From positions 1-25,008 of the forward strand of contig CAZIWQ010000005.1 of assembly GCA_964542355.1 (NCBI GenBank): 25,008 nt of DNA, read 5' to 3'. The position numbers and the translations under genes are program-made. Below, in pieces: positions 1 through 19,889 of the stretch; position 1 is the first letter of the stretch; each line of letters opens with the position of its first letter. Below the pieces are notes generated by a model that was not told where the DNA came from, searched no databases, and was given only the letters and a program-made list of their open reading frames with translations. Source of the DNA: an uncultured Armatimonadia bacterium (lineage in GTDB: Bacteria; Armatimonadota; Zipacnadia; Zipacnadales; JABUFB01).

Positions 1-2
1 TC

Positions 3-1451: not shown

Positions 1452-1454
1452 GGT

Positions 1455-1847
1455 TCAGCCTCCGATCTCCCTCTCGCTCAGGTTCTTGTTGACCCAGCCC
1501 CTGGCTTCCTCGACCGTCATCTGTCCCCCGCCTACCAGCAAGGCCACTACCGCCAGCCGGAAGTGGTCACCGAACTGTGCGAACGCGTCTCGCAGCTGGC
1601 TGATCTCCGCCAGCCCCTGCAGTTGCGCGAGCAGCTGACGCAGGCCGGAGACTTCCCCGCGCAGTGCCACCAGCTCATCCTGCAGCTGGAGGGTCTCGCC
1701 GCCCATCAGGCCCTCCACCACCAGGCGACGGGCATGCTCACCGGCACTGCAGCCCAGCAGTTCTGCCCGCTCGCGTAGGACCTTCTCAGCGGTCTCATCA
1801 AGCCGAAAGGTAATCGGGTTAGAGCGTTTGGGAGTGGGTTTGGTCAT
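1455..1847 (-). CDS. Ribbon-helix-helix relaxosome accessory protein (TrwA/MobC-like role) with coiled-coil C-terminus
   Basis: N-terminal PITFRLDETAEKVLRERAELLGCSAGEHARRLV fits an RHH pattern; stop is 3 bp upstream of the relaxase ATG; lies between oriT and relaxase. Start taken at MTKP (1847) rather than the track start 1901. Confidence 0.7.
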   Translation of the reverse strand: MTKPTPKRSNPITFRLDETAEKVLRERAELLGCSAGEHARRLVVEGLMGGETLQLQDELVALRGEVSGLRQLLAQLQGLAEISQLRDAFAQFGDHFRLAVVALLVGGGQMTVEEARGWVNKNLSEREIGG

Positions 1848-1878
1848 CGCCTTCGGGGCTCCTCGTGACGGCTTATGT

Positions 1879-1918
1879 GTATACCAATACGTATACCTCA
1901 TTTGAAGCCATTTGGCAA
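1879..1918 (-). promoter_or_regulatory. Candidate promoter of the RHH-relaxase operon with GTATACC direct repeats
   Basis: Minus strand TTGCCA (1918-1913), 17 bp, TATACG (1895-1890); GTATACC at 1879-1885 and 1891-1897 overlap the -10. Confidence 0.35.
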
Positions 1919-1944
1919 GCTATAATGTCGTTTGAAACGCTCTG

Positions 1945-1975
1945 TGGTGCACCATAGGTGCATAAGGTGTGGAAG
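1945..1975 (+). other. Predicted MOBF oriT, nic between 1970 and 1971
   Basis: TGCACC-ATA-GGTGCA hairpin (1948-1962) followed by 8 nt TAAGGTGT then GG; same layout as the R388 nic (GCGCACC-GAAA-GGTGCG TATTGTCT^) and F-like GGTGT^GG; adjacent to the relaxase operon. Confidence 0.75.
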
Positions 1976-2323
1976 GTGGTGGTTTACGGAGAGGCAGGAG
2001 GGGTGAGGAGGGTACAGGGGCGCAAGGCAGGGCCAGGAGGCAAAGCGCTGGGAGCGCAGCAGGAGCGAGGGTCAGGTCTGGTGGACGGGCGTGGCGGTGG
2101 CGGCAGGGCAGGGAGATGTGTAGCGGCGGAGAGCTGCGGGAGGAGTGGGCAGCGGCGCGAGGGGGCGCTGGCTGCTCGGGTGCAGGCTGATGGGGCCAAG
2201 GACGACGGAGTGGCGACGGCTGGTCTGGAGTGAGGTTCGGGAGCCTCTTCCCTATCTGCTGACTGTCGGTGTAAGTGGCGACCGACCAGACTACCCGTCT
2301 GGCCGGCCGCCGGATCAGCTCAC

Positions 2324-2617
2324 TCAGTATTCATCGGGCAGCAGGATCGTTGTGACCGAGCGGTCGGCCTCGGTGATGACCCAGAACTTGTGTCCCGACT
2401 GCGACTGGTACGCCGACAGCAGCCGGAACCCCTCGCGCACGGACAGGTCGTTCTCCTCGCGGTCCGCGGCGCAGACCTCGCCCCAGTCCCCCCGACAGTG
2501 CCGGCTCAGGGCGGTCATCACGTCCTCATGGCTCAGCGCCTCCTGCGCTCCTGGGGTGATGCAGATGCTCCCCAGACTGAATGGTGTCTGTTGCTCCTTG
2601 GTGTCTTTGTGTATCAT
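2324..2617 (-). CDS. Conserved small plasmid/ICE hypothetical protein (ITPGA...RH..GDWG...WVITEADRSVTTILLPDEY family)
   Basis: Recognisable motif set; GGAG RBS upstream of ATG 2617; 97 aa. Confidence 0.8.
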   Translation of the reverse strand: MIHKDTKEQQTPFSLGSICITPGAQEALSHEDVMTALSRHCRGDWGEVCAADREENDLSVREGFRLLSAYQSQSGHKFWVITEADRSVTTILLPDEY

Positions 2618-2669
2618 CGCTCTATCTCCATCAAAAAGGGGCCGGCCACCCGAGCCGACCCCACAGTTA

Positions 2670-2924
2670 CTACTCTGCACTCTCCTCGGCCTCGCTGCCT
2701 GTGACCAGGTCCCGGAACATCAGGGTGTGTGCCTCGTCCAGCGCCTTGATCACCAACGGCAAGTCATCGCGCCAGAAGCTGTCCGACGTTTTCCACTCCT
2801 CCCCGGACTTGTATCTCCGGCTGACCGTCACGGTGTAGCGCACGCCGTGCTCGGTGTTGTTCGGCCAGATCGTGGCCCGGATGCGCCCATAACGGATCTC
2901 GGCGACTGGTTTGCTGTTTGCCAT
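2670..2924 (-). CDS. Small beta-rich hypothetical protein, possibly ssDNA-binding (PC4-like fold is an inference)
   Basis: 84 aa MANSKPVAEIRYGRIRATIWPN...YTVTVSRRYKSGEEWKTSDSFWRDDL...; GGGAG RBS; acidic tail SEAEESAE. The upstream part of the 275-aa track ORF is low-complexity and not credible. Confidence 0.75.
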   Translation of the reverse strand: MANSKPVAEIRYGRIRATIWPNNTEHGVRYTVTVSRRYKSGEEWKTSDSFWRDDLPLVIKALDEAHTLMFRDLVTGSEAEESAE

Positions 2925-2925
2925 A

Positions 2926-3002
2926 GCTGTTCTCCCAAAAGGGGGATGGTCCATTCCATCCACGCGTACCTGGTGGAATGGACCAGCCCCCGAGGGAACA
3001 GC
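2926..3002. repeat. 77-nt imperfect inverted repeat directly upstream of the 84-aa gene
   Basis: TGGTCCATTCCA (2947-2958) and TGGAATGGACCA (2974-2985) are perfect complements; GGGGG/CCCCC and GCTGTTC/GAACAGC extend the stem. Confidence 0.85.
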
Positions 3003-3480
3003 GGGGCCCTGCCGGTGGGGAAGCGGAAGCAGAAGCCGGGAAGGCACGGGAAGTGACGGCCCCCCCAGGGGCTGGCGCGCCCCGTGCCCGGCAGCGACGC
3101 GACCGCCGGCGGGAATGGCCCATGGCAGACAGCCCAGGCCGCCAGAGAGCCGCGGGCGCACGGGCAACTGGCCGGGGAAACGGTAGGCACGGCGGGCAAC
3201 GGTCAGGGAAGCCGAACAGCCGGGAGAGGGGACCACGACGTAGGGCGCAGACAGTTGCTGCGGGTGGCTCAGGCGCGGGGCGTTGCCCCTGTCGGCAGGG
3301 GTGACCTGGGCAGGGCGCGAGGCACGGCAGAGAGCATGACCGGGGGGCGCGGGGGACGGCCAGAGAGGGAGATGACCGGTGAGACACAAGCGGCGCCGCG
3401 AGCACAGACCTGACCGGGGGAGCCGGCTGAGGCCGGGCGCGCAGCCAGGAGCAAGAGGTCCTGCGGCGGGATCGGCAGGG

Positions 3481-4725
3481 TCACGAGGAGGGGTCATGGT
3501 CCAGCTGAGGGGAGGGGCAGGGCGGCAGCTGCCGGTTCACAGTGCGGTCCCAGGCCCAGAAGTCCAGCACGCGGCCCCGTTCGGCAAAGAACGCCAGGCA
3601 CCGCTCGCGATGACTGCCCGGAGCGTCGAAGGCCGCCAGACAGCGGGCGCGCATGGGCTCTGACAGAGGCAGGCGCGCGTGAGCGGCACGGAGCTGGGCC
3701 TCGTGGGTCTGAAACTCCTCCCACAGTCTGGGCTCCTGGGCCATGATCTCCCCCAACCGCTGGTCGAGGTACCCCGCATACGCTGCCTGCCAGGCGGCAG
3801 CATAGTCATCTCGGGCGCGGTTGGCCTCAGCGCGCGCGGCGGTGGCAGCCTGCCGTCGCGCGCACGCCTGTGCTTGTCGGTAGCCCCGCGGTGGGCCATA
3901 GGCCCCCTCGATGGCGCACCGCAGCCACGCCCCCGGACTGCCCCGCAGTTCCGCTGCTTTGTAGGGCAGGTAGGCCAGTTGGCGGCGGCATTCTGCGGGG
4001 CTGGCGCCGGCGAGCCGCACCGCGTCCTCCCGGTTCACGTCCTGCGCCACCAATGCGGCAACGAGGTCCTCAGTAGCAGCTTCTGCTGCTGTTTCTTGTT
4101 CTGTCTCTTGTTCTGTCTCTTGTCTCTCCCGTTCTGGGAGGACCCCCTCTCCCAACATCGGAGGACCCCCGCCAGTATCTGAGAGGACGTTCTCCCGATC
4201 TGGGAGAGCCCTCTCCCCCACCTCCGAAGAGACCTGCTGAGCAGGCAGGGCCGGTTCATTCCCAAGCTCACCGACGAAGTCGAGATTGAGGCGGTACGTC
4301 GTTTGATCGTGCTCGCCCGTGCTGGCATCCAGGTTTCGTTGGCGAACGAGTAGCCCCCGTGCTTCCAGCGACTTGGCCGCCCGCGCCACGCTCGATACGG
4401 ACAGCCCCGTCCCCCGATCCAGCACACTCCCGTCGCGGCGGCGGATCCCCCGCGCCAGCTGCTGCAGGCTGATGCGGTCCCGGTCCTTCCCAAAACCGTA
4501 CGTCCGGCGGGCCACGTACAACAGCACTTTGAGTTCAGCCCCGGTGAGTGCCCACATCCAGTGATCCAGGATCAAGTCTGGTATCTGTGTGCTGTTCGGT
4601 ATCAGGCTCCTGACCATAGGCCCCCCACTGACTGCGCGAGTGTCTCGATCCTCTGATGCGGCCACCCCCTCTCTCGATGCGCCATCGTTTGGCTGCTCAT
4701 CCCGTTGTGTAGCTTCCTCGCTCAA
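3481..4725 (-). CDS. Phage O-like / wHTH replication initiator, paralog 1 (TTG start 4725; alternative ATG 4617)
   Basis: STQIPDLILDHWM..LTGAELKVLLYVARRTYGF.KDRDRISLQQL..GI..RDG..LDRGTGLS...V.RA.KSLE.RGL wHTH; internal DNA repeats; helical SPGAWL..AI domain. Confidence 0.75.
   Translation of the reverse strand: MSEEATQRDEQPNDGASREGVAASEDRDTRAVSGGPMVRSLIPNSTQIPDLILDHWMWALTGAELKVLLYVARRTYGFGKDRDRISLQQLARGIRRRDGSVLDRGTGLSVSSVARAAKSLEARGLLVRQRNLDASTGEHDQTTYRLNLDFVGELGNEPALPAQQVSSEVGERALPDRENVLSDTGGGPPMLGEGVLPERERQETEQETEQETAAEAATEDLVAALVAQDVNREDAVRLAGASPAECRRQLAYLPYKAAELRGSPGAWLRCAIEGAYGPPRGYRQAQACARRQAATAARAEANRARDDYAAAWQAAYAGYLDQRLGEIMAQEPRLWEEFQTHEAQLRAAHARLPLSEPMRARCLAAFDAPGSHRERCLAFFAERGRVLDFWAWDRTVNRQLPPCPSPQLDHDPSS
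4095..4222. repeat. Intragenic iteron-like array of rep1 plus 12-bp tandem repeat
   Basis: TCTCCC-N5-GGGAG-like dyads at 4125, 4148, 4170 (degenerate), 4191, 4212 (degenerate), period 21-23 bp; CTTGTTCTGTCT x2 plus a partial copy at 4095-4127. Confidence 0.6.
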
Positions 4726-4821
4726 CTATCCACCAGGCCCGAGCACCTGACAAGGTGCGCGCAGGAATGAGTAATGTAGTCCGCACGCCCGGCCTGGCGT
4801 CAGACATCTGCCGCAATGCCT

Positions 4822-4938
4822 CAATACTGTACTACCGTAATACCGTCAGACAGTCAAGCCTCATAGCCGCTAAACCGTACTACGGCTGCACTGTAATACG
4901 GCAGTGCCGCTTCGCGTCTTGACATCCTTGCGGTATTG
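4822..4938. repeat. Candidate centromere/operator 8-mer repeats (consensus YAMTACYG) upstream of parA
   Basis: CAATACTG/TACTACCG/TAATACCG tandem at 4822-4845; CCGTACTACGG 4875-4885; CTGTAATACGG 4891-4901; inverted CGGTATTG 4931-4938. Confidence 0.6.
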
Positions 4939-4947
4939 CTGTTCAAT
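4919..4947 (+). promoter_or_regulatory. Sigma70-type promoter of the parA operon
   Basis: TTGACA (4919-4924), 17 bp, TTCAAT (4942-4947), 25 bp before the ATG at 4973. Confidence 0.6.
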
Positions 4948-4972
4948 GCCCCTACTCGAACCGAGGGATCAC

Positions 4973-5752
4973 ATGACACGGACCATCGCCATCTGCAACC
5001 AAAAGGGTGGGGTCGGCAAGACCAACACCGTCGCGAACCTCGGTGCTGCTTTCGCCCAGATGGGGAAGCGGACGCTGCTGGTCGACCTCGACCCCCGCGG
5101 TGATCTCACGTCGTCGTTCGGCATCGATGCGGATACGCTGGAAGTGACCGTCTATGAGGCGCTCTTTGACCCAGCGGTCTCGCTGGTGGACGCCTCGGTG
5201 CTGCTTCCTGCTGACAATCTGGCCCTGGTCCCCGCCAATACCAATCTGGCGGCCGGCGAGATGCTGCTGATGGAGCGGGGGAGAGGGGACAGGGAGAGGA
5301 TACTGGCTGATCTCCTGCAGCAAGTCAGCCCGGAGGTCGAGTTCGTCCTCATCGACACCCCACCAGGGCTGCAACTGCTCACGGTCAACGCTCTGGTCGC
5401 CGCACGCGAGGTTCTGGTCCCCCAGCAGTGCTCTTTCATCAGTCTCCATGGCCTCAAACAGCTTCAGAAGACGGTGGATGGCGTCCGCGAGGCTCTCAAC
5501 CCCGAGCTTCACATCTGTGGGATCGTGGCGACCATGCTGGACAGGCGCACGCTCCATCACCGCGAGGTCATCACACTGATGCGCGAGGCCTTTGGTGAAC
5601 TGGTCTTCGAGACCATGATCCCCACCAGCATCCGCTTTCAGGAGGCCCCGGCGACGGGCACACCTGTCATCCAGTACGCTCCGCAGTCTACGGGAGCTGT
5701 CGCCTATGTTGCACTAGCTATGGAGGTGCTAGACCGTGGCAAAGCGAGCTGA
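4973..5752 (+). CDS. parA: ParA/Soj family partition ATPase (short, type Ib-like)
   Basis: MTRTIAICNQKGGVGKT deviant Walker A, LLVDLDP, LIDTPP; GAGGGA RBS before ATG 4973. Confidence 0.95.
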   Translation: MTRTIAICNQKGGVGKTNTVANLGAAFAQMGKRTLLVDLDPRGDLTSSFGIDADTLEVTVYEALFDPAVSLVDASVLLPADNLALVPANTNLAAGEMLLMERGRGDRERILADLLQQVSPEVEFVLIDTPPGLQLLTVNALVAAREVLVPQQCSFISLHGLKQLQKTVDGVREALNPELHICGIVATMLDRRTLHHREVITLMREAFGELVFETMIPTSIRFQEAPATGTPVIQYAPQSTGAVAYVALAMEVLDRGKAS

Positions 5753-6194
5753 ACTGCCGAAGGCCAACGCCTTCTTCGGGGGCGCGTCCCCAGCGACGCG
5801 GGAGGCTGTAGCCCCGTCTCATGAACCTGCCGAAGCGGCCGCTGTAGTGTCTGAGGGTGCGACCGAGCTTCCTCTCCAGGAGGCACCCCCAGCGCCTGTT
5901 GCTGTCGAGGCTGGACGCGGCGCTACAGGTACACCTGAGGCTGTGGTCCCCCCTGAGGCCGTCGTCAGCACCACCACCAAGGACGGGGGGGGCGACGTGG
6001 AGAAGGTCACCTTGTACCTTCCCCCTGACATCATCCGACAGCTTGAGGTGACACGGGTTGACCTGCTCGTGCGGTACGGCGCGAAGGTCAACCGCTCACG
6101 GATCGCCGCCGCCATCCTCCGGCAGACGCTGGAGGACATCTCCCAACATCACCCCACGGGAGATCGCCTGATGGAGGCCCTGACGCGGGCATAG
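5736..6194 (+). CDS. RHH partition adaptor (ParG-like) with long flexible N-terminus
   Basis: GTG start overlaps the parA end; Ala/Pro/Glu-rich linker; C-terminal KVTLYLPPDIIRQLE...VNRSRIAAAILRQ RHH pattern. Confidence 0.7.
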   Translation: MAKRAELPKANAFFGGASPATREAVAPSHEPAEAAAVVSEGATELPLQEAPPAPVAVEAGRGATGTPEAVVPPEAVVSTTTKDGGGDVEKVTLYLPPDIIRQLEVTRVDLLVRYGAKVNRSRIAAAILRQTLEDISQHHPTGDRLMEALTRA

Positions 6195-6228
6195 AGCACA
6201 CGCCGTCGGTAACCCAGGAGTTCATGCT

Positions 6229-7488
6229 ATGCCGCCCCCCAAGGATGATGACTTCGAGTTCGAAGGCTTCTTGGCGCCCTCCTATACCCAGGTGCCGGAC
6301 GAGGCCTTCGACAAGCTCATGGCCAGGCTCAGTCCCGCTGAGTTTAAGGTCATGATGTACATCATCCGTCGCACCTTTGGGTTCAAGAAGGGCGCCGACG
6401 CGATCTCCATCAGCCAGATTGTCTCCGGCATACGAACCAAAGACGGCACGCAGCTCGACATGGGAACGGGCCTCACCAGACGGGGTGTGACCAAAGCACT
6501 GGCCGAACTGGCAAGGCGCAAGGTCATCGTGGTCGAGCGCCGACGCAGCGTGAAAAAGGGCTTCGAGGCCACCGTCTACCGCCTAAACATCATCGGCAAC
6601 CTCGGCAATTTCCCCCATCCCGATGATCCCCGCGTCCAGCCGCTCCTGCAGCTTCCGCAAGACCCTAGGGAACTGAGTTCCCTAGGGCTAGGGAACTCAG
6701 TTCCCCAGGCTAGGGAACTGAGTTCCCTAGAACAAGAAACAGTAGTACAAGACACAGAGAAACAACAACAACAGCCCCGTCCGCGCCGGGCCAAAGCCTC
6801 CCCCAAAACCACACCCGTCAGCGAACCAACGGATGTTGTTGTTGCTTCTTCGAATGATACGACGACAGACACGGCCAACGACATCCAGACCGGTCTCGCC
6901 GCTCTCGGCGTCGCACAGTCGACCATACGCAGCCTGCTCAAGAACCGGGACCACACGACAGTGGGACGCTGGGTCGCCTATGTCGAGCATAAACTGGCCA
7001 GCGGCTGGATGCCTCATGAGTCTCCGGCGGCGTGGATTGTCACGGCCATCCGCTCCGGTGACTGGGTCATCCCGGATTGGTTCCAGACACCTGAAGAACA
7101 GGCCGCCGCCGCCGCTCAAGAGGTACAGCTGGTTGAGGCAGAGAGAAGACGACGTGACGAGGAAGCAGAACTTGAACGCCGCAAAGCTGAGCAGCAACGG
7201 CGCGCCGTCGAGAGTGAACTGGGGGTAGGGGAGAGCACGCGGGAGACCTGGGAACGGGTACAGGATCTGCTCCGGGACACTGAGCACTTCTCAGTTGCGT
7301 TCCTCGGCAGCCACCTGTTGCCGCTCAACGGTCGCGTGGCCACCGTGGTGACTTCAGCCCCCTTCTTCCGGGAGGTCATTGAGAAGCGCGCCGAGGCTCT
7401 GTGTTCAGTCATCTCCGAGGTGTCTGGCAAGAACATCGAGGTCGTAGAGGTAAAGCTCTTCCAGCCGACAGCGGGGGCGGGGAAATAG
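6229..7488 (+). CDS. Phage O-like / wHTH replication initiator, paralog 2, with DnaA-domain-I-like C-terminus
   Basis: YTQVPDEAFDKLMARLSPAEFKVMMYIIRRTFGFKKGADAISISQI..GIRTKDG..LDMGTGLT aligns by eye with paralog 1; AGGAG RBS; internal palindromic repeats. Confidence 0.8.
   Translation: MPPPKDDDFEFEGFLAPSYTQVPDEAFDKLMARLSPAEFKVMMYIIRRTFGFKKGADAISISQIVSGIRTKDGTQLDMGTGLTRRGVTKALAELARRKVIVVERRRSVKKGFEATVYRLNIIGNLGNFPHPDDPRVQPLLQLPQDPRELSSLGLGNSVPQARELSSLEQETVVQDTEKQQQQPRPRRAKASPKTTPVSEPTDVVVASSNDTTTDTANDIQTGLAALGVAQSTIRSLLKNRDHTTVGRWVAYVEHKLASGWMPHESPAAWIVTAIRSGDWVIPDWFQTPEEQAAAAAQEVQLVEAERRRRDEEAELERRKAEQQRRAVESELGVGESTRETWERVQDLLRDTEHFSVAFLGSHLLPLNGRVATVVTSAPFFREVIEKRAEALCSVISEVSGKNIEVVEVKLFQPTAGAGK
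6663..6730. repeat. Three 21-bp palindromic iteron-like repeats inside rep2
   Basis: CTAGGGAACT(G/C)AGTTCCC(T/C)AG at 6665-6685, 6688-6708, 6710-6730, followed by an A-rich tract. Confidence 0.9.
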
Positions 7489-7616
7489 ACCACGCGATCA
7501 GCCCTCCTTCAAGCCGTTCCTACGAGGCTCCCCTCTCCCCAAGGCCCTCGGACCAACGCCGAATAGCCGGGTGAAGGTCACACCCACTCCCAACCCTTCC
7601 AAGGAGGCGCAAGCTG

Positions 7617-11300: not shown

Positions 11301-14156
11301 ATGCCCTACCGCAAGAAGCTCATCGAGGTTGCCCTGCCGCTCGAAGCCATCAACCGGGAGGCGGCGCGGGAGAAGTCCATCCGGCATGGGCATCCGTCCA
11401 CGCTGCACTTGTGGTGGGCGCGGCGGCCGCTGGCGGCGTGTCGGGCCGTGCTCTTCTCGTCGCTGGTGGACGATCCCGAGGAGCCCGAAGCACCCCAGGA
11501 GTATCTCGACGAACTCGACAAGCTGCCGGGGGGCGTGGGGTTGCCGCCGGAGACGCCCATCGGGGAGGTCCGGCGCGAGAAGCTCTTCCGCTTCATCGAG
11601 GAGCTGGTGAAGTGGGACAACTCCAACAACGAGCGGATCATCGGCACTGCCCGGCGGCTGATCCTGGCGGCCACGGAGGGCAACCCGCCGCCGGTGCTGG
11701 ACCCCTTCTGCGGCGGGGGCTCGATCCCCCTGGAGGCGCAACGGCTCGGGCTGGAGGCGCATGGCAGTGACCTGAACCCGGTCGCGGTGCTCATCACCAA
11801 GGCCCTAGTCGAGATCCCGCCCAAGTTCGCCGGGCAGGCGCCGGTGAACCCGGAGGCGCGCCGGCGCAAGGACACCTCGGCCTGGCCCGTCGCCACCGGC
11901 CTGGCGGACGATGTGCGGTGCTACGGCAAGTGGATGCGCAACGAGACCGAGAAGCGTTTTGGGTACCTCTATCCGAAGGTGAAGCTCCCGAGAGAGCAAG
12001 GTGGGGGAGAGGCGACGGTCATCGCCTGGTTGTGGGCCCGTACGGTACAGTGCCCGAACCCAGCCTGTGGGCGCGAGATGCCACTCCTGTCAAACCTGGT
12101 GCTCTCGTCTAAGGCGGGCAAGGAGTGCTATCTTCGCCCCGTCTTCGATGCCCGCGTCCTGTCGTTTGACGTAGGGCCGAACCGCCCTGCACACCCAGCA
12201 GATCCGAAGAAGGGCTTCAAACGGGGGATGTCGGGCATCTTTGAGTGTGTCTTCTGCGGGACGGTTACAACGCGGGACTACGTCGCGACAGAAGGTGTTG
12301 CAGGCCGACTGGGGCGGATCCAGACTGCCGTTGTCGCTGAAGGACCAAAGGGGAGAGTATACCTCCCAGCCGAAAGCTCTCCGACACCTGAGAACGTGCC
12401 AGAAGTGAACGACACCCGTGGCCTTGATGTGGAGTTTGCTCCAAACCCTCGCGACCTCTGGTGCCGGAATTTCGGACTGACACGACCGCGGGATGCCTTC
12501 ACGCCCCGCCAGCTCGTGGTACTGACGACCTTCTGTGATTTGGTCGGCGAGGTACGCGGGAAAGTGCGCGAGGACGCCCTCGCCGCCGGTATGGCCGACG
12601 ACCCCATATCGCTCGACGCTGGCGGCACGGGGGCGCAGGCGTACGCCGACGCCGTGGGGACGTATTTGGCTTTGGTCGCCAGCAAGGCCACAGCATTCCA
12701 CAACACGCTCGCGCGCTGGCGCGCTGGAGAGGACAAGTCCGCCCCCGCCATCGGACGACAGGCGATCCCGATGGTATGGGACTTCACTGAGGTCAATCCG
12801 TTCGCCGGCGCAGGCGGAGACTTCGACGGGATCACAGATGGTGCCGCCAAGACGTGCGCGTCTCTGCCAGCGGCACCCAGAGGGACTGCACAGCAACTGG
12901 ACGCAGCCGCTTCCCTGCTTACCGCCCCTCGTCCACTCATATCAACCGATCCCCCGTATTACGACAACATCGCCTACGCCGACCTATCCGACTTTTTCTA
13001 CGTGTGGCTGAGAAGATCGCTGGGCAGTGTATACCCGCAGCTCTTCTCCACGCTCCTCGTGCCGAAGGCGCAGGAGTTGATAGCAGCGCCTTATCGCTTC
13101 GACGGCAGCCGGCAGAAGGCTCAGAACTTCTTCGAGGACGGCCTGGGCAGAGCCTTCAGCCACGCAAGGAGCGCGCAGCACTCTGCCTATCCGCTTCCTG
13201 TCTTCTATGCCTTCAAGCAGACCGAGACGGAGGAGAACGACCACGACGCCGACGCGTCCACTTCGGCCTCAACGGGTTGGGAAACCATGCTGGAGGGTCT
13301 GCTGACTGCGGGGTTCTCCATGACTGGCACCTGGCCGATGAACACCGAGATGAAGACGAGACAGGTTGCGATGGGTACCAACGCCCTTGCCTCCTCCATC
13401 ATCCTGGTCTGCCGCCCTCGTCCCGACAACGCACCGATGGCAACCCGCCGCGAGTTCACTTCAGCCCTGCGCAAAGAGCTGCCACCCGCGCTGGCACAAC
13501 TCACCCACGCGGGCATTCCACCGGTGGACCTGGCGCAGGCGACCATCGGGCCGGGCATGGCCGTCTTCTCCCGCTACTCGAAGGTGCTGGAGGCCGACGG
13601 GAGCCCCATGACCGTCCGCACCGCGCTCCAGATCATCAACCAGGAGCTTGACGCCTACCTGACCGAGCAAGAGGGCGATCTGGACGGCGACACCCGCTTC
13701 TGCATCGCCTGGTTCGAGCAGTACGGGCTCAACGAGGCCGCCTTCGGCGAGGCGGACGTGCTCGCCCGCGCCAAGAATACCTCGGTTGAGGGTATCGAGG
13801 AGGCCGGCGTCCTCCACGCCCGCGCCGGTAAGGTGCGCCTGCGCCAGCGTTGCGACTACCCGGAGGACTGGGACCCGCAGACCGACCGCCGCCTGACCGT
13901 CTGGGAGTGCACCCAGCACCTGATCTGCGAGCTGGAGCGGAGTGGGGAAGAGGGGGCGGCGGCGCTTGTCCGCCGTCTCGGTGGCGGCATGAGCGAAGAC
14001 GCCCGCGCCCTGGCCTACCGCCTCTACGCCATCGCCGACCGCAAGGGCTGGACCGACGAAGCCCGCGCCTACAACGGCCTGGTGGTCTCCTGGCCGGCCA
14101 TTGTCGAGAAGGCAGCACGGGCACCGGCGGCGGAACAGCCGGGGCTGTTTGAGTAG
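11301..14156 (+). CDS. DUF1156-type N6-adenine DNA methyltransferase
   Basis: KKLIEVALPL..IN...REKSIRHGHPSTLHLWWARRPL N-terminus; motif I DPFCGGGS; motif IV TDPPYYDN; Cys pairs CPNPAC and CVFC in the central region; ATG 11301 (GTG 11298 alternative). Confidence 0.92.
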   Translation: MPYRKKLIEVALPLEAINREAAREKSIRHGHPSTLHLWWARRPLAACRAVLFSSLVDDPEEPEAPQEYLDELDKLPGGVGLPPETPIGEVRREKLFRFIEELVKWDNSNNERIIGTARRLILAATEGNPPPVLDPFCGGGSIPLEAQRLGLEAHGSDLNPVAVLITKALVEIPPKFAGQAPVNPEARRRKDTSAWPVATGLADDVRCYGKWMRNETEKRFGYLYPKVKLPREQGGGEATVIAWLWARTVQCPNPACGREMPLLSNLVLSSKAGKECYLRPVFDARVLSFDVGPNRPAHPADPKKGFKRGMSGIFECVFCGTVTTRDYVATEGVAGRLGRIQTAVVAEGPKGRVYLPAESSPTPENVPEVNDTRGLDVEFAPNPRDLWCRNFGLTRPRDAFTPRQLVVLTTFCDLVGEVRGKVREDALAAGMADDPISLDAGGTGAQAYADAVGTYLALVASKATAFHNTLARWRAGEDKSAPAIGRQAIPMVWDFTEVNPFAGAGGDFDGITDGAAKTCASLPAAPRGTAQQLDAAASLLTAPRPLISTDPPYYDNIAYADLSDFFYVWLRRSLGSVYPQLFSTLLVPKAQELIAAPYRFDGSRQKAQNFFEDGLGRAFSHARSAQHSAYPLPVFYAFKQTETEENDHDADASTSASTGWETMLEGLLTAGFSMTGTWPMNTEMKTRQVAMGTNALASSIILVCRPRPDNAPMATRREFTSALRKELPPALAQLTHAGIPPVDLAQATIGPGMAVFSRYSKVLEADGSPMTVRTALQIINQELDAYLTEQEGDLDGDTRFCIAWFEQYGLNEAAFGEADVLARAKNTSVEGIEEAGVLHARAGKVRLRQRCDYPEDWDPQTDRRLTVWECTQHLICELERSGEEGAAALVRRLGGGMSEDARALAYRLYAIADRKGWTDEARAYNGLVVSWPAIVEKAARAPAAEQPGLFE

Positions 14157-14189
14157 TTGCAGGCGAGGACGCCCCAGAACCACAATACA

Positions 14190-14219
14190 TGGTGAACTCA
14201 CCACTTTTTGTGGTATGAT
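14190..14219 (+). promoter_or_regulatory. Extended -10 promoter with overlapping inverted repeats (candidate autoregulatory operator)
   Basis: TG-G-TATGAT at 14211-14219; TGGTGA-AC-TCACCA at 14190-14203; ACCAC-TTTTT-GTGGT at 14200-14214. Confidence 0.5.
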
Positions 14220-14226
14220 GAGTGTC

Positions 14227-14880
14227 ATGAACACGACGAGCGAGAGAAGCGAACCGACTGGTTTGTTCGGGAGAACGCGCAGTGCGGTGCTGGGCCTGCT
14301 GTTCGGACAGCCGGAGCGCGACTTCTACCAGCAGGAAGTGGCGCAGGTGGCGGGGGCGAGGCTGAGCGCGGTGCAACGCGAACTGGCGAGCCTGGTGGCT
14401 GCGGGACTGGTAACGCGGCGCAAACGGGGGAACCGGGTCTACTACCAGGCGGACGCGCGCTGCCCCCTGTTCGCCGAGGTGCGGGGCATCATCGCCAAGA
14501 CGACTGGGCTGACGGGGGTCCTGCGCCGGGCATTGGAGCCACTGCAGGAGCGTATCGCGGTCGCCCTGGTGTTCGGCTCGCTGGCGGCAGGCACGGCGAT
14601 GAGCGGGAGCGATGTGGATGTCCTGGTGGTGGGAGATATGTCACTGCGAGACGTGGCGCCGCTGCTCGCGCCTACACGGGAAGCGTTGGGGCGAGAGGTG
14701 AACCCGGTGGTGGTATCGCTCGGAGAGCTGCGGGAGAAGATCGCGAGGGGCGACCACTTCCTGAGCACGGTGCTGTCGGGACCGAAGCTGTTCGTGATCG
14801 GAGACGCCGATGACCTTGGACGACTTTGCGCAGAGGGGCATGCTGCACCAACACAAGACGACGGCCCAGGAGATCGCTGA
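14227..14880 (+). CDS. wHTH (ArsR/MarR-like) fused to minimal nucleotidyltransferase (MNT antitoxin-like)
   Basis: N-terminal wHTH (SAVQRELASLVAAGLVTRRKRGNRVYY); GS-LAAGTAMSGS-DVD is exactly GSX10DXD. Start could be 14215, 14218 or 14227. Confidence 0.85.
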   Translation: MNTTSERSEPTGLFGRTRSAVLGLLFGQPERDFYQQEVAQVAGARLSAVQRELASLVAAGLVTRRKRGNRVYYQADARCPLFAEVRGIIAKTTGLTGVLRRALEPLQERIAVALVFGSLAAGTAMSGSDVDVLVVGDMSLRDVAPLLAPTREALGREVNPVVVSLGELREKIARGDHFLSTVLSGPKLFVIGDADDLGRLCAEGHAAPTQDDGPGDR

Positions 14881-15316
14881 CCTGTGGGCGATAGCCGAGG
14901 TGGGGCTGGCAGACGCTCGTGTGGGAGCGATCTCGCTGGACCGGCGCTTTACCGCGGCATACGACGCGGCGCGGTCGCTGGCGACGATCCCCCTGGCGTG
15001 CGCGGGCTACCGCACCGCCGGCGCGGGACACCACGCCACGACCTTCGCGACACTGCCCCTGACTATGGGTAGCGAGTACCAGCCCCTTGTTGCGTTCCTG
15101 GACATGTGCCGGGTGAAGCGGAACGTCTCTGAATACCGGCGCGTGGGCCAGGTCCAAGCGGGGGATGTACAGGACCTGATCGAGGCAACGGAGGAGCTGC
15201 AGGCCAAGCTGGAGCAGTGGCTCGCGACAGAGCACCCAGCCCTGAAGCCCAGCGCCGGGGGGCCGCCCGAGACAACATCGGACGCGCAGGCCTCATCGCA
15301 GAACAGTGAGGAGTGA
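14810..15316 (+). CDS. HEPN-fold protein paired with the MNT
   Basis: RFTAAYDAAR...GYRT..GHH...LDMCRVKRNVSEY; R-X4-Y in place of R-X4-H; overlaps the MNT 3' end. Confidence 0.75.
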   Translation: MTLDDFAQRGMLHQHKTTAQEIADLWAIAEVGLADARVGAISLDRRFTAAYDAARSLATIPLACAGYRTAGAGHHATTFATLPLTMGSEYQPLVAFLDMCRVKRNVSEYRRVGQVQAGDVQDLIEATEELQAKLEQWLATEHPALKPSAGGPPETTSDAQASSQNSEE

Positions 15317-18259: not shown

Positions 18260-19171
18260 GTGACTGAGTACCACCTGCAACTTCCGGGGAACTGGGTCCA
18301 CGCACAGGTTCTGGAAAACGCCCTGGGCAGGGCTGGTGAGCCACACGGGGACGTTTACGGTTCCATGCGCTGTGTGTTTCCGTCTGGCTGCAAAGTCATG
18401 GTAGACGCGTGCGTACGGCTTCTCTCACTTGTGAACCAGTTGGCGCATGTTGGAAGGCAGGTAACACTCGAATTCGAGGAAGGGCCGGATGGCACGATGG
18501 GGTACCTCGACCGGATCGGCTTCCTCGAACAGCTGGCTTCCACAGTTGCCGTAGTTCCAGCGCCTCCGGCACAGTCCGCAGGGGCTCGCTACCGCGGGCG
18601 CAATCCGGAGCTCGTTGAGCTACGGGCGATAAGCTTGGGGAAACGAGACAGAGATCTGCCACAGCAATTGGCCGACGCGGTCGTGGAGGCATGTTCCGGG
18701 CGCACTGACCGCAAGCCATTGGGGCATGCGACATATACTCTCTTTGCTGAGCTGGTCGACAATATCTTCGAGCACAGCGAGACGCAAGTCGATGGGTACG
18801 CAGCGGTGCAGGCATACCATGGTGGAGGAGAGGTCTGGGTAGCAGTATCGGATAGCGGGTGCGGGATCCTGGAAACGGTCCGACCGTCACTCAAAAACGG
18901 CTCGCTTCGGCGCCTATCAGACCCGGAACTCATTGTACATATGTTCAATGAAGGCCTGTCACGATTTGGGGCACAACGCGGATGCGGTCTACACCAGTGT
19001 GCTAGTCACGCCCTGAAGTACCAAGCCCATCTTCTGCTTCGCCTGCCGACATCTTGTCTTGAGCTGGTGCCCGGCGACGGCTGCTACGTACCCAACAAGG
19101 CATATATCCAGGCGGGCTTGCCGCTTCTCTGGGGGACGCATATCGTCTTCCAGTTCCGGCTTGACAAGTAG
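18260..19171 (+). CDS. capK: STAS-like plus GHKL (SpoIIAB-like) kinase, CapK-like
   Basis: N box FAELVDNIFEHS, G1 VSDSGCGI, G2 RGCGL; N-terminal domain with MGYLDRIGF; GTG start; adjacent STAS-wHTH gene. Confidence 0.72.
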   Translation: MTEYHLQLPGNWVHAQVLENALGRAGEPHGDVYGSMRCVFPSGCKVMVDACVRLLSLVNQLAHVGRQVTLEFEEGPDGTMGYLDRIGFLEQLASTVAVVPAPPAQSAGARYRGRNPELVELRAISLGKRDRDLPQQLADAVVEACSGRTDRKPLGHATYTLFAELVDNIFEHSETQVDGYAAVQAYHGGGEVWVAVSDSGCGILETVRPSLKNGSLRRLSDPELIVHMFNEGLSRFGAQRGCGLHQCASHALKYQAHLLLRLPTSCLELVPGDGCYVPNKAYIQAGLPLLWGTHIVFQFRLDK

Positions 19172-19193
19172 CCTCACTTCTGGTTTAATGAAG
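19161..19193 (+). promoter_or_regulatory. Near-consensus sigma70 promoter in the capK 3' end driving capS
   Basis: TTGACA (19161-19166), 17 bp, TTTAAT (19184-19189) with extended TG at 19181-19182. Confidence 0.7.
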
Positions 19194-19196
19194 GCG

Positions 19197-19748
19197 ATGA
19201 ACGAGAAGAGTGTCACCATACGCCTGCGGGATCACATGGACCATGACGACGCCTGGGGGCACGCCGCAGGACAAGAGGTGTTCAGTAGGCTACTTGCGGT
19301 GCTGCGGGCACATGTGGGGATCGCGATGTTCCGTGTCTCACTGGAAGGTGTGACACGAACAGACGCATCCTTTCCTCGTGAGAGCGTAGTACGTCTCGCC
19401 AAGCAGTTTCGGAAGGAGAAGGGGTTCTGCTTGGTCAATGCGGCCGATAGTGATCTTCTCGACAACTGGGATGCGGCAGCGCAGAAGCAGGAGCAGCCGC
19501 TTGTGGTCTGGCGCAGCGATGAGTGGCGCCTGCTAGGCCCCAAGCCTTCGGAGGGACTGCGACCTCTGTTTGAGCACGTACTAAGCCGAGGAGCGGTGAC
19601 GACAAGTGAAGCCTGCGAGGCACTTCAGCTGAATGCGCCGAACGCAAGCAATAAGCTGAAGACGCTGTGGGAGCAAGGGTACCTGCTCCGGCGAGAGCGA
19701 GCCGCTGTAAGCGGCGGCCTAGAGTATGAGTACTTCATCGCTCGATAG
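19197..19748 (+). CDS. capS: STAS-like (DUF4325-like) plus wHTH transcriptional repressor, CapS-like (alternative ATG 19188)
   Basis: STAS-like RVSLEGVTRTDASFPRE with candidate phospho-Ser; C-terminal wHTH TTSEACEALQLNAPNASNKLKTLWEQGYL...SGGLEYEY. Confidence 0.72.
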   Translation: MNEKSVTIRLRDHMDHDDAWGHAAGQEVFSRLLAVLRAHVGIAMFRVSLEGVTRTDASFPRESVVRLAKQFRKEKGFCLVNAADSDLLDNWDAAAQKQEQPLVVWRSDEWRLLGPKPSEGLRPLFEHVLSRGAVTTSEACEALQLNAPNASNKLKTLWEQGYLLRRERAAVSGGLEYEYFIAR

Positions 19749-19778
19749 ATTAGGCCCTTTTTGTTGGAACTTCATTCA

Positions 19779-19793
19779 TCTGGTTCATTGAAG
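19779..19793 (+). promoter_or_regulatory. Second copy of the TCTGGTTyAwTGAAG motif upstream of the MBL gene (candidate operator)
   Basis: TCTGGTTCATTGAAG matches TCTGGTTTAATGAAG (19179-19193) at 13/15. Confidence 0.5.
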
Positions 19794-19889
19794 CAGAATT
19801 GGCGCGGCGATAGGCAATCCTCACAGGCGGAATAGGTCCAAGGTGGAGGACCACAAAGTCCAAAACGGAGTGCAAGCTGGAGGTACACC

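What the first reader, a model, noticed from the sequence alone, without database searches (positions are those of the whole stretch)
19161..19793. Internal near-consensus promoter predicts a leaderless capS mRNA; the same 15-mer recurs exactly 600 bp downstream before the MBL gene
TTGACA-17-TTTAAT with extended TG lies in the last capK codons. The expected +1 (about 19196-19197) coincides with ATG 19197. TCTGGTTTAATGAAG (19179) overlaps this -10, and TCTGGTTCATTGAAG (19779) lies in the capS-MBL gap, with TTGTTG-17-TTCATT at the equivalent offsets. This is a ready candidate operator pair: CapS would repress itself and the effector operon while capK stays outside the repressed unit.
Basis: partly seen in the sequence, partly recalled or inferred. 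Interest (0 to 1): 0.66.

Follow-up and report, generated by a model that had tools for sequence, protein, structure and literature searches.

The report
CapS repressor's two operator-promoter sites
The two look-alike sequences flanking capS are almost certainly the two binding sites of the CapS repressor, a defence-gene switch described in 2026; this is a new example of it, with the added prediction that capS is made from an mRNA with no leader.

Summary
TTGACA (19161-66), a 17-nt spacer, TG and TTTAAT (19184-89) sit 7 nt before ATG 19197. The two 15-mers lie 600 bp apart, but they match at 13 of 15 positions, so they are not "the same".

Comparison with 117 related loci from many phyla shows both sites are conserved non-coding DNA.
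- **Site 1:** TTGAC[A/T], then 17 nt (with TG), then TT[C/T]AAT, then 7 nt, then the start codon. This holds in 84 of 88 distinct sequences.
- **Site 2:** a T-run follows the capS stop codon, then three phased half-sites, [..GTTCA][TCTGnTTCA]n[TGAAnnAGA].
- **Covariation:** the half-site changes together at both sites between lineages (TTCA/TGAA here, TTAA in gammaproteobacteria).

This logic is already published (Chambers et al., EMBO J 2026). CapS is a STAS-wHTH repressor that binds its own promoter and the downstream operon's promoter. The kinase CapK releases it by phosphorylation after DNA damage. The window's proteins are clear homologues, so this is a new member of a known system.

New details:
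- TTCA half-sites.
- A CapK without the N-terminal HTH.
- A predicted leaderless capS whose first codons form an operator half-site.

No transcription start data exist. The promoter assignment at site 2 is weak.

The parts
18260..19171 (+). capK: a STAS-GHKL serine kinase of 303 aa. It lacks the N-terminal HTH of the studied CapK.
   Evidence: Pfam HATPase_c E 4.6e-6. It is 32% identical (E 1e-44) to E. hormaechei/roggenkampii CapK WP_001567866.1 from that protein's residue 58 onward. The catalytic Asn N218 aligns with window N168. The start (GTG 18260) is conserved in relatives.
19161..19166 (+). -35 hexamer TTGACA of promoter P1, inside the last capK codons
   Evidence: Read. TTGAC[A/T/C/G] is present in 84 of 88 distinct relatives, with a 17-nt spacer in 82 of 88. 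It is conserved wherever the capK stop codon falls (-8 to +23) and in two reading phases, so the constraint is on the DNA.
19181..19189 (+). Extended -10 of P1: TG-G-TTTAAT (family consensus TGnTTCAAT). It has T, not A, at hexamer position 2.
   Evidence: TG in 74/88; TTCAAT 39, TACACT 23, TTTAAT 6, TTAAAT 6. It was not called by the generic promoter scan.
19179..19206 (+). Operator site 1: three phased 9-bp elements, TCTGGTTTA | ATGAAGGCG | A | TGAACGAGA. It holds a narrow palindrome TTTA-A-TGAA (19184-92) and a wide palindrome TTTA-N10-TGAA (19184-19201). The right half is the capS start codon plus the second codon.
   Evidence: This corresponds to promoter #1 / ChIP peak #1 of PMC13373217.
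19196..19197 (+). Predicted transcription start of capS (G19196 or A19197), giving a leaderless or 1-nt-leader mRNA
   Evidence: Inferred from geometry. A start codon lies exactly 7 nt after the -10 in 84/88 distinct relatives (ATG 63, GTG 20, TTG 1). ATG 19197 is the only in-frame start codon between the -10 and the conserved Ile8. No TSS data exist.
19197..19748 (+). capS: a STAS-wHTH repressor of 183 aa. The phospho-acceptor Ser58 is encoded at 19368-70.
   Evidence: PDB 9z71 E 6.8e-36 and 9z72/9z73 E 6.7e-35 over residues 8-179. It is 38% identical to WP_001567865.1. The motif TDASFPRES and the residues N, K and GG are invariant.
19758..19762 (+). T-run after the capS stop codon (5 T here, 5-9 in relatives) at a fixed distance upstream of operator site 2. 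It may be a -35/UP-like element, a terminator tail, or both.
   Evidence: the centre of site 2 lies about 22 nt after the T-run in most loci. In the window a hairpin at 19716-56 precedes it (-26 kcal/mol, z -2.9), but the hairpin is not conserved.
19770..19797 (+). Operator site 2: CTTCATTCA | TCTGGTTCA | T | TGAAGCAGA. It holds a wide palindrome TTCA-N10-TGAA (19775-92) and a narrow palindrome TTCA-T-TGAA (19784-92).
   Evidence: The TTCA/TGAA wide cores occur in 43 of 58 distinct relatives. This corresponds to promoter #2 / ChIP peak #2 and the 'wide palindrome' of PMC13373217.
19761..19789 (+). Candidate promoter P2 for the MBL operon: TTGTTG, 17 nt, (TG)TTCATT. Each hexamer matches consensus at 3/6. 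The expected +1 is near 19796-97.
   Evidence: Read. In relatives the -35 position is TTTTT[G/A/T/C] and the -10 position is TTCAnT. TG is present in only 16/58. This agrees with the paper's statement that the middle half-site is part of the -10. The assignment is tentative.
19879..19883 (+). Shine-Dalgarno GGAGG, 6 nt before the MBL start codon
   Evidence: Read directly from the sequence.
19890..21017 (+). Metallo-beta-lactamase-fold protein, the first gene of the regulated 'MBL pathway' operon
   Evidence: PADLOC weak MBL hits. The same gene order occurs in relatives L028, L032 and L036. [quoted passage not shown]
21022..23277 (+). E2-E1-JAB fusion protein (Cap2/Cap3-like). The likely start is ATG 21022 (751 aa).
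   Evidence: Pfam Prok-E2_A, ThiF and Prok-JAB. PADLOC E1-E2 and JAB. The gene is 751 aa in the 92% relative L028.

Best explanation
The finding is the pair of CapS operators that bracket capS in a CapK-CapS regulatory module.

**The proteins.** CapS is a STAS-wHTH protein with its phospho-acceptor at Ser58. It binds as dimers or higher oligomers to phased TTCA/TGAA half-sites.

**Site 1 (19179-19206).** It overlaps the extended -10 and the start point of a promoter. The -35 of that promoter (TTGACA) is written into the last capK codons. Bound CapS blocks its own transcription.

**Site 2 (19770-19797).** It sits between a T-run and the 93-nt leader of the MBL / E2-E1-JAB operon, and blocks that operon.

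**The switch.** capK is transcribed from further upstream and is not under this control. When CapK is activated, it phosphorylates Ser58, the CapS dimer falls apart, and both units are de-repressed. In the studied homologue the activator is single-stranded DNA from DNA damage or repair.

**Leaderless capS.** Transcription from P1 is predicted to begin at or 1 nt before ATG 19197, so capS mRNA is leaderless. Its first two codons (ATG AAC) double as the right half of the wide palindrome.

**Shown here:** sequence anatomy, cross-phylum conservation, covariation of the two sites, and homology of both proteins.

**Shown elsewhere for a homologue:** binding at two sites, repression, autoregulation and phosphorylation.

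**Inferred:** binding by this CapS, both start sites, and the exact P2 elements.
For: **Anatomy and chance levels**.

**Site 1 in 88 distinct relatives**:
- -35 is TTGACA in 47 and TTGACT in 27.
- The spacer is 17 nt in 82.
- TG is present in 74.
- A start codon lies exactly 7 nt after the -10 in 84.
- In-frame stop codons inside the motif in L002 and L014 show it is not coding.
- TTGAC is kept whatever the capK stop position or phase.

**Site 2** is conserved in 58 well-anchored distinct relatives. This holds whatever the downstream cargo: MBL, patatin-like, TIR-like, YegP-like and others.

**Covariation.** The half-site covaries between the sites: TTCA.TGAA with TTCA.TGAA, and TTAA.TTAA with TTAA.TTAA. 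Within-locus identity is 11.4 of 19 against 10.4 between loci. None of 2000 permutations reached this value.

**Footprint.** In the 92% relative L028 the operator and promoter blocks are kept while the spacer and flanks diverge.

**Protein homology.**
- CapS matches solved CapS structures 9z71 and 9z72/9z73 at E ~1e-35, with the phospho-serine aligned.
- CapK is 32% identical to the studied kinase, with the catalytic Asn conserved.

**Published experiments on the homologue** (PMC13373217):
- Two ChIP peaks at the equivalent positions.
- Narrow (1-bp) and wide (10-bp) palindromes with the same half-site.
- Kd of 0.3-0.9 uM.
- Deleting capS, or S54E, de-represses both.

**Leaderless prediction.**
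- Only ATG 19197 can serve downstream of the -10 and still encode the conserved Ile8-Arg-Leu.
- 41 of 48 main-group sequences use ATG.
- Only 2 of 48 have an SD-like tetramer in the gap.
Against: - No transcription start data exist for this or any relative. The only RNA evidence is one 155-nt metatranscriptome contig (19208-19362), which is uninformative.
- The P1 -10 (TTTAAT; family TTCAAT) lacks the critical A at position 2.
- P2 matches consensus at only 3/6 + 3/6. Its -35 position is just a T-run in relatives, and TG is present in only 16/58.
- In a Ktedonobacteria-like lineage, half-site 3 is the Shine-Dalgarno of the downstream gene. That does not fit a start site downstream of it.
- In the experimentally studied Enterobacter locus, capS starts 22 nt after its -10 and the TTGAC is absent. 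Leaderless geometry is therefore not universal.
- The half-site tested in vitro was TTAA, not TTCA.
- The window's CapK lacks the HTH domain.
Confidence: 0.8

Rival explanations
1. Site 1 is only an operator or roadblock, not a promoter. capS would be translated from a capK-capS read-through transcript, using ATG 19188 or 19197 and the GAAGG just upstream. capS mRNA would then not be leaderless.
For: - The -10 lacks A at position 2 and was not called by the scan.
- GAAGG lies 2 nt before ATG 19197.
- An in-frame ATG lies 9 nt upstream in several relatives, giving MK.MN.
- The studied Enterobacter capS has a short leader.
Against: - TTGAC, the 17-nt spacer and TG are conserved regardless of capK frame or stop position. 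An operator alone does not explain this.
- The upstream ATG overlaps the -10 and is absent or followed by stop codons in many loci.
- SD-like tetramers occur in only 2/48 main-group gaps.
- As RNA, the read-through form would pair the AUG in a hairpin of -10.6 kcal/mol.
Confidence: 0.12
2. Site 2 is an operator without its own promoter. The MBL operon would be transcribed from P1 through capS, and CapS bound at site 2 would act as an internal roadblock. The T-run would be a weak terminator or pause.
For: - P2 hexamers are weak: 3/6 + 3/6, and TTTTTn at the -35 position in relatives.
- In one lineage half-site 3 is the SD of the next gene, so the start must lie upstream of it.
- Most main-group loci have no strong terminator after capS.
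Against: - Gammaproteobacterial relatives have clear hairpin-plus-T-run terminators between capS and site 2, so a new promoter is needed there.
- The window itself has a terminator-like hairpin before the T-run (z -2.9).
- The T-run sits at a fixed distance from the operator centre, at the -35/UP position.
- The published work treats it as promoter #2.
Confidence: 0.15
3. The conserved palindromes act as RNA hairpins, controlling translation or stability, rather than as protein-binding DNA.
For: Site 1 folds as RNA to -10.6 kcal/mol (z -1.9), with the AUG in the stem.
Against: - Site 2 has no significant RNA structure (z -0.08).
- The middle half-site flips orientation between loci while the spacing is kept. 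This fits protein half-sites, not a stem.
- The homologous DNA sites are bound by CapS in vivo and in vitro.
Confidence: 0.04
4. The resemblance between the two 15-mers is chance similarity between two AT-richer gaps.
For: About 575 pairs matching 13/15 are expected among all 15-mer pairs in 25 kb (my estimate).
Against: Both sites are also conserved in about 90 distinct relatives at fixed positions.
Confidence: 0.01

Closest known systems
CapK-CapS of Enterobacter roggenkampii / Vibrio cholerae (Chambers, Rani, Min, Villa, Corbett; EMBO J 2026, PMC13373217; PDB 9z71, 9z72, 9z73)
   Same: - Gene order: capK, capS, then an immune operon. The module sits downstream of a methylase-containing system, and the paper lists MBL operons among the cargo.
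- CapS is a STAS-wHTH protein with the conserved phospho-serine and DNA-contact residues.
- There are two CapS sites, one in the capK-capS gap and one after capS.
- The sites are built from one half-site, used as a narrow (1-bp) and a wide (10-bp) palindrome, and they overlap the predicted promoters.
   Different: - The half-site is TTCA/TGAA, not TTAA.
- Both the narrow and the wide palindrome are present at each site.
- The -35 is a perfect TTGACA inside capK, which the Enterobacter locus lacks.
- The start codon lies 7 nt after the -10 (predicted leaderless), against 22 nt in Enterobacter.
- CapK lacks the N-terminal HTH.
- Nothing has been tested experimentally for this locus.
CapW/BrxR and CapH-CapP, other DNA-damage-responsive repressors of CBASS, BREX and Bub operons (as cited in PMC13373217)
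   Same: A small regulator is encoded just upstream of a toxic defence operon and represses it by binding palindromes over the promoter until a damage signal arrives.
   Different: - The protein folds are unrelated (WYL-wHTH; HTH plus metallopeptidase).
- Release is by ligand binding or proteolysis, not by serine phosphorylation of a STAS domain.
SpoIIAB-SpoIIAA / RsbW-RsbV partner-switching modules
   Same: A GHKL kinase phosphorylates a conserved serine on helix 2 of a STAS protein.
   Different: Here the STAS protein is itself a DNA-binding repressor and no sigma factor is involved.
Phage lambda cI expressed from PRM (own knowledge, not tested here)
   Same: A repressor gene is transcribed as a leaderless mRNA from a promoter overlapped by that repressor's own operators, and it is autoregulated.
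   Different: - The proteins are unrelated.
- Lambda cI also activates PRM.
- The leaderless status of capS is only predicted.

Membership tests
CapK-CapS regulatory module | [quoted passage not shown] | tested here: met
   phmmer E 6.8e-36 (9z71) and 6.7e-35 (9z72/73) over residues 8-179. BLASTP 38% identity, E 2e-46, to WP_001567865.1.
CapK-CapS regulatory module | Conserved phospho-acceptor serine in the STAS domain (S54 in E. roggenkampii, S58 in V. cholerae) | tested here: met
   Window Ser58 in TDASFPRES aligns with TDSSFPRES of 9z71 and with the S58A position (TDAAFPRES) of 9z72. The position is S or T in all 27 aligned homologues.
CapK-CapS regulatory module | Conserved wHTH DNA-contact residues (N145, K151, G169-G170 in the studied protein) | tested here: met
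   N, K and GG of ..NASNKLK.. and ..SGG.E. are invariant columns in the alignment and aligned in the PDB hits.
CapK-CapS regulatory module | A GHKL kinase (CapK) encoded immediately upstream, with the catalytic Asn | tested here: met
   HATPase_c E 4.6e-6, 27.5 bits against a cutoff of 26.4. 32% identity, E 1e-44, to WP_001567866.1, with N218 aligned to N168.
CapK-CapS regulatory module | CapK architecture HTH-STAS-GHKL | tested here: not met
   The window CapK (303 aa) aligns from residue 58 of the 368-aa protein, so the HTH is absent. The start is conserved in relatives. The paper reports that deleting the HTH had no effect, so this is a variant and does not exclude membership.
CapK-CapS regulatory module | capK-capS followed by an immune operon, often after an R-M-type system | tested here: met
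   HmaA/B/C lie upstream, and MBL, E2-E1-JAB and a membrane protein lie downstream. The same order occurs in L028, L032 and L036.
CapK-CapS regulatory module | Two palindromic sites with one shared half-site, in the capK-capS gap and after capS, spaced 1 bp (narrow) and 10 bp (wide) | tested here: met
   Site 1 has TTTA-A-TGAA and TTTA-N10-TGAA. Site 2 has TTCA-T-TGAA and TTCA-N10-TGAA. Both are conserved and covary in relatives.
CapK-CapS regulatory module | CapS binds these sites and represses; CapK phosphorylation, triggered by ssDNA, releases it | not testable with these tools
   Known only for the E. roggenkampii homologue.
Sigma-70-type promoter (P1) | -35 and -10 hexamers with a 16-18 nt spacer | tested here: inconclusive
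   The -35 matches 6/6, the spacer is 17 nt and TG is present. The -10 matches 5/6 but has T at the key position 2. Strong cross-phylum conservation of the -35, spacer and TG argues for function.
Leaderless mRNA | The transcription start coincides with the start codon (leader of 0-2 nt); AUG start; no SD needed | not testable with these tools
   Geometry alone predicts it: ATG lies 7 nt after the -10 here and in 84/88 relatives. No 5'-end data exist.

The most novel reading that the evidence does not exclude
In most lineages (at least six phyla), capS is made from a leaderless mRNA. Its promoter, operator and start codon form one compact cassette of about 46 bp (TTGACA ... TGnTTCAAT ... ATGAAC). 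The -35 is encoded inside capK. The first two codons (Met-Asn/Lys) are fixed because they are an operator half-site.

Read-through transcripts from capK would bury the AUG in a hairpin formed by the wide palindrome. CapS synthesis would then depend strictly on de-repression of P1. The CapK-CapS paper describes none of this.
Probability: 0.5. Interest if true: 0.4.

Novelty: new member of a known kind. Interest (0 to 1): 0.3.

Why it matters
This locus looks like a working example of the CapK-CapS switch, placed between an Hma (helicase-methylase-ATPase) system and an MBL / E2-E1-JAB defence operon on a mobile element.

The comparative data add four points to the published model:
- The two-operator layout is conserved across phyla.
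- The half-site has diverged (TTCA, TTAA and other variants) while the 1-bp and 10-bp spacings are kept.
- The half-sites at the two sites evolve together.
- The capS promoter is fixed 7 nt before the start codon.

These features give a simple sequence signature for finding CapS-controlled defence cargo. They also give a testable prediction, leaderless capS, about how the repressor pool is reset after induction.

Tried and rejected
- **RNA evidence for the start site.** Searches found only DNA metagenomes (sludge and wastewater) plus one wetland metatranscriptome contig covering 19208-19362, which cannot locate a 5' end. A relative from an enrichment culture had no RNA runs.
- **T-run as a conserved intrinsic terminator.** Rejected as a general explanation. 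The median z of the upstream 45 nt was -0.5, with no consistent hairpin in the main group. Gammaproteobacterial relatives and the window itself do have one.
- **Third CapS site inside capK (TTCAATGAA at 18944).** Not conserved even in the 92% relative.
- **Rfam.** No RNA family anywhere in the window.
- **Close plasmid or phage relatives.** None found.
- **Recognition-helix residue versus half-site type.** Only a loose trend, with small A/G at helix position 4 in TTAA lineages, and it is contradicted by the studied protein.
- **Direct versus inverted relation of the sites.** Both arrangements occur among relatives, so neither orientation is the rule.
- **The 600-bp spacing.** The distance between the sites is not conserved.
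Full report
**1. What is in the sequence.**

- capK (18260-19171) ends CTT GAC AAG TAG.
- TTGACA occupies 19161-66. A 17-nt spacer follows, ending in TGG.
- TTTAAT occupies 19184-89. Seven nucleotides follow (GAAGGCG), then ATG 19197.
- A second in-frame ATG at 19188 overlaps the -10.

capS runs to 19748, and the MBL gene starts at 19890 behind a GGAGG.

The two 15-mers start exactly 600 bp apart but are 13/15 identical, not the same. The generic promoter scan did not report P1. It demands A at -10 position 2, and here that base is T.

Site 2 is a 19-bp palindrome, TCTGgTTCAtTGAAgCAGA. The longest relation between the two sites is a 30-nt inverted repeat, 19175-19204 / 19772-19801, 77% complementary.

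Chance does not explain these features.
- The 15-mer finds 3 places at <=3 mismatches against 0.15 expected.
- The family-derived promoter pattern occurs once against 0.01 expected.
- TTCA-N10-TGAA occurs once in 25 kb, at site 2.

**2. Genes around it.**

Upstream lie HmaA, HmaB and HmaC (PADLOC bit scores of 1161.8-1747.9 over the full length), with a nucleotidyltransferase gene between hmaB and hmaC.

Downstream of capS lie four genes:
- an MBL-fold protein;
- an E2-E1-JAB fusion (Prok-E2_A, ThiF, Prok-JAB);
- a 252-aa membrane protein;
- a tyrosine integrase on the other strand.

The first 7.5 kb carries NikA-like, RepO-like and ParA genes. The window is therefore a mobile element. Sludge and wastewater metagenomes hold it.

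**3. Comparative test.**

I collected 117 loci encoding CapS relatives (40-92% identity) from genomes and metagenomes. They include Chloroflexota/Ktedonobacteria, Acidobacteriota, Desulfobacterota, Myxococcota, Cyanobacteria/Melainabacteria, Bdellovibrionota, and Beta- and Gammaproteobacteria.

*Site 1.* Among 88 distinct upstream sequences:
- the -35 is TTGACA (47), TTGACT (27) or TTGACC/G (10);
- the spacer is 17 nt in 82;
- TG precedes the -10 in 74;
- the -10 is TTCAAT (39), TACACT (23), TTTAAT (6) or TTAAAT (6);
- a start codon lies exactly 7 nt after the -10 in 84 (ATG 63, GTG 20, TTG 1).

In-frame stop codons inside the motif (L002, L014) rule out coding conservation. The capK stop codon falls anywhere from 8 nt before to 23 nt after the TTGAC, and in two phases, yet TTGAC is kept. 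The constraint is therefore on the DNA, as expected for a -35.

In the main group, 41 of 48 sequences use ATG and only 2 of 48 have an SD-like tetramer in the gap.

The conserved Ile8-Arg-Leu requires translation to start at or before codon 8. ATG 19197 is the only in-frame start codon downstream of the -10. If P1 drives capS, the mRNA is leaderless or has a 1-nt leader.

*Site 2.* In 58 well-anchored distinct sequences, a run of 5-9 T follows the capS stop codon. About 22 nt after its end lies the centre of [..GTTCA][TCTGnTTCA]n[TGAAnnAGA]. The outer cores form TTCA-N10-TGAA in 43 of 58.

The site is present whatever gene follows: MBL, patatin-like, TIR-like, YegP-like, small conserved proteins or large proteins. 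It therefore travels with capS, not with the cargo.

*Covariation.* Lineages with TTCA/TGAA at site 1 have it at site 2. Gammaproteobacterial lineages have TTAA at both. Within-locus identity of the two 19-mers exceeds between-locus identity (11.4 against 10.4), and none of 2000 permutations reached it. Relatedness inflates this test, but the lineage-level switch is clear.

Depending on the locus, the two 28-mers are direct repeats (up to 26/28, L008) or inverted repeats (up to 25/28, L089; 20/28 in the window). The outer half-sites are fixed and the middle one flips.

In the 92% relative, the promoter and operator blocks are intact while the spacer and flanks have diverged.

**4. It is a known system.**

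A literature search found Chambers et al. (bioRxiv February 2026; EMBO J June 2026, PMC13373217), who named CapK and CapS. In E. roggenkampii:
- CapS is a STAS-wHTH homodimer.
- ChIP-seq shows one peak in the capK-capS gap (promoter #1, narrow palindrome TTAAaTTAA). A second lies between capS and the operon (promoter #2, wide palindrome TTAA-N10-TTAA, with a middle TTAA said to be part of the -10).
- Kd values are 0.9 and 0.27 uM.
- Deleting capS, or S54E, gives constitutive expression of both CapS and the reporter.
- CapK phosphorylates S54 after DNA damage and is activated by ssDNA.

The paper lists 7 MBL operons among the cargo. It also finds 88 of 443 loci placed directly after an R-M-type system, as here.

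The window's CapS matches the deposited structures at E ~1e-35, with Ser58 on the phospho-site. CapK is 32% identical to the studied kinase with the catalytic Asn conserved, but it lacks the N-terminal HTH. The paper found that domain dispensable.

The paper contains no mention of a leaderless mRNA or a mapped start site.

**5. What differs or is added.**
- The half-site is TTCA/TGAA.
- Each site contains both a narrow and a wide palindrome. At site 1 these are 19184-92 and 19184-19201. At site 2 they are 19784-92 and 19775-92.
- The right half of the wide palindrome at site 1 is the start codon plus the next two bases. This explains why the family begins Met-Asn or Met-Lys almost without exception (ATGAA in the great majority).
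- The studied Enterobacter locus is the outlier. It lacks TTGAC, and its ATG lies 22 nt after the -10.
- A Ktedonobacteria-like lineage has a canonical TACACT -10. Its third half-site is TGAAGGAGA, which also reads as a Shine-Dalgarno for a downstream ATG of capS and for the cargo gene.

**6. Weak points.**

There are no 5'-end data. The only RNA signal is a single 155-nt metatranscriptome contig inside capS.

The P1 -10 is non-canonical at its key base. The likely reason is that it must also be a CapS half-site.

P2 is weak by sequence (3/6 + 3/6). In relatives the -35 position is simply the T-run, and TG is present in 16 of 58. Its start site cannot be fixed. The Shine-Dalgarno-in-half-site lineage suggests that the start lies further upstream there, or that the cargo is read through from P1.

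The T-run may also be a terminator tail. Clear hairpins precede it in gammaproteobacterial loci and in the window (z -2.9), but not generally.

As RNA, site 1 would fold (-10.6 kcal/mol, z -1.9) with the AUG in the stem. That might silence capK read-through transcripts. Site 2 has no such structure.

**7. Verdict.**

The system is already known, and this is a new member of it with a diverged half-site and an HTH-less kinase. The one element beyond the literature is the conserved leaderless geometry of capS, which remains a prediction.

Noticed in passing
window 19175-19204 and 19772-19801: capS is bracketed by an imperfect 30-nt inverted repeat (77% complementary). In relatives the two operators are direct repeats in some loci and inverted repeats in others.
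   Followed up: yes
window 19758-19762; all related loci just after the capS stop codon: A run of 5-9 T follows the capS stop codon in nearly all relatives. It sits at a fixed distance (about 22 nt) from the centre of operator site 2. Its role is unresolved: UP/-35-like element, terminator tail, or part of the CapS footprint.
   Followed up: partly
window 19716-19763: A terminator-like hairpin (GGCCUAG...UUAGGCC, then C-UUUUU-G; -26 kcal/mol for 69 nt, z -2.9) ends capS in the window. It is not conserved in the 92% relative L028.
   Followed up: yes
L001, L010, L040-L054, L070, L076, L083 and others (Ktedonobacteria-like loci): This lineage has a canonical -10 (TACACT). Its third half-site, TGAAGGAGA, occurs at both sites. 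It also reads as a Shine-Dalgarno for a downstream capS ATG and for the cargo gene's start codon.
   Followed up: partly
L118 (E. hormaechei plasmid pIMP-20710, identical over the 36-nt oligo to the published E. roggenkampii locus): The experimentally studied capKS locus sits on conjugative IncHI2-type plasmids of many Enterobacteriaceae and in a few E. coli genomes. Its capS has no TTGAC -35 and starts 22 nt after the -10, unlike most relatives.
   Followed up: partly
window 18260-19171: CapK here, and in its close relatives, lacks the ~55-residue N-terminal HTH domain of the published CapK architecture.
   Followed up: yes
window 14101-15316: An HTH-nucleotidyltransferase gene (Pfam NTP_transf_2) and an overlapping 168-aa ORF with no family match lie between hmaB and hmaC. 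This looks like a toxin-antitoxin-like insert inside the Hma system.
   Followed up: no
window 20980-24028: The longest-ORF starts are probably too early. By comparison with the 92% relative, the E2-E1-JAB gene likely starts at ATG 21022 (751 aa). The following membrane protein likely starts at 23270 (252 aa), overlapping the JAB gene's end by 8 nt.
   Followed up: partly
window 1-7500 and 24105-24902: NikA-like, two RepO-like and ParA genes lie at one end, and a tyrosine integrase at the other. The defence cluster rides on a plasmid-like or integrative element with no close match in PLSDB.
   Followed up: partly
window 18944-18952: A lone TTCAATGAA core lies inside capK. It is not conserved in relatives, so it is probably chance.
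   Followed up: yes
window 19208-19362: One 155-nt contig from a wetland metatranscriptome (4 mismatches) covers the 5' part of capS, starting 11 nt after the predicted start. No coverage lies upstream. This is compatible with the prediction but not informative.
   Followed up: yes
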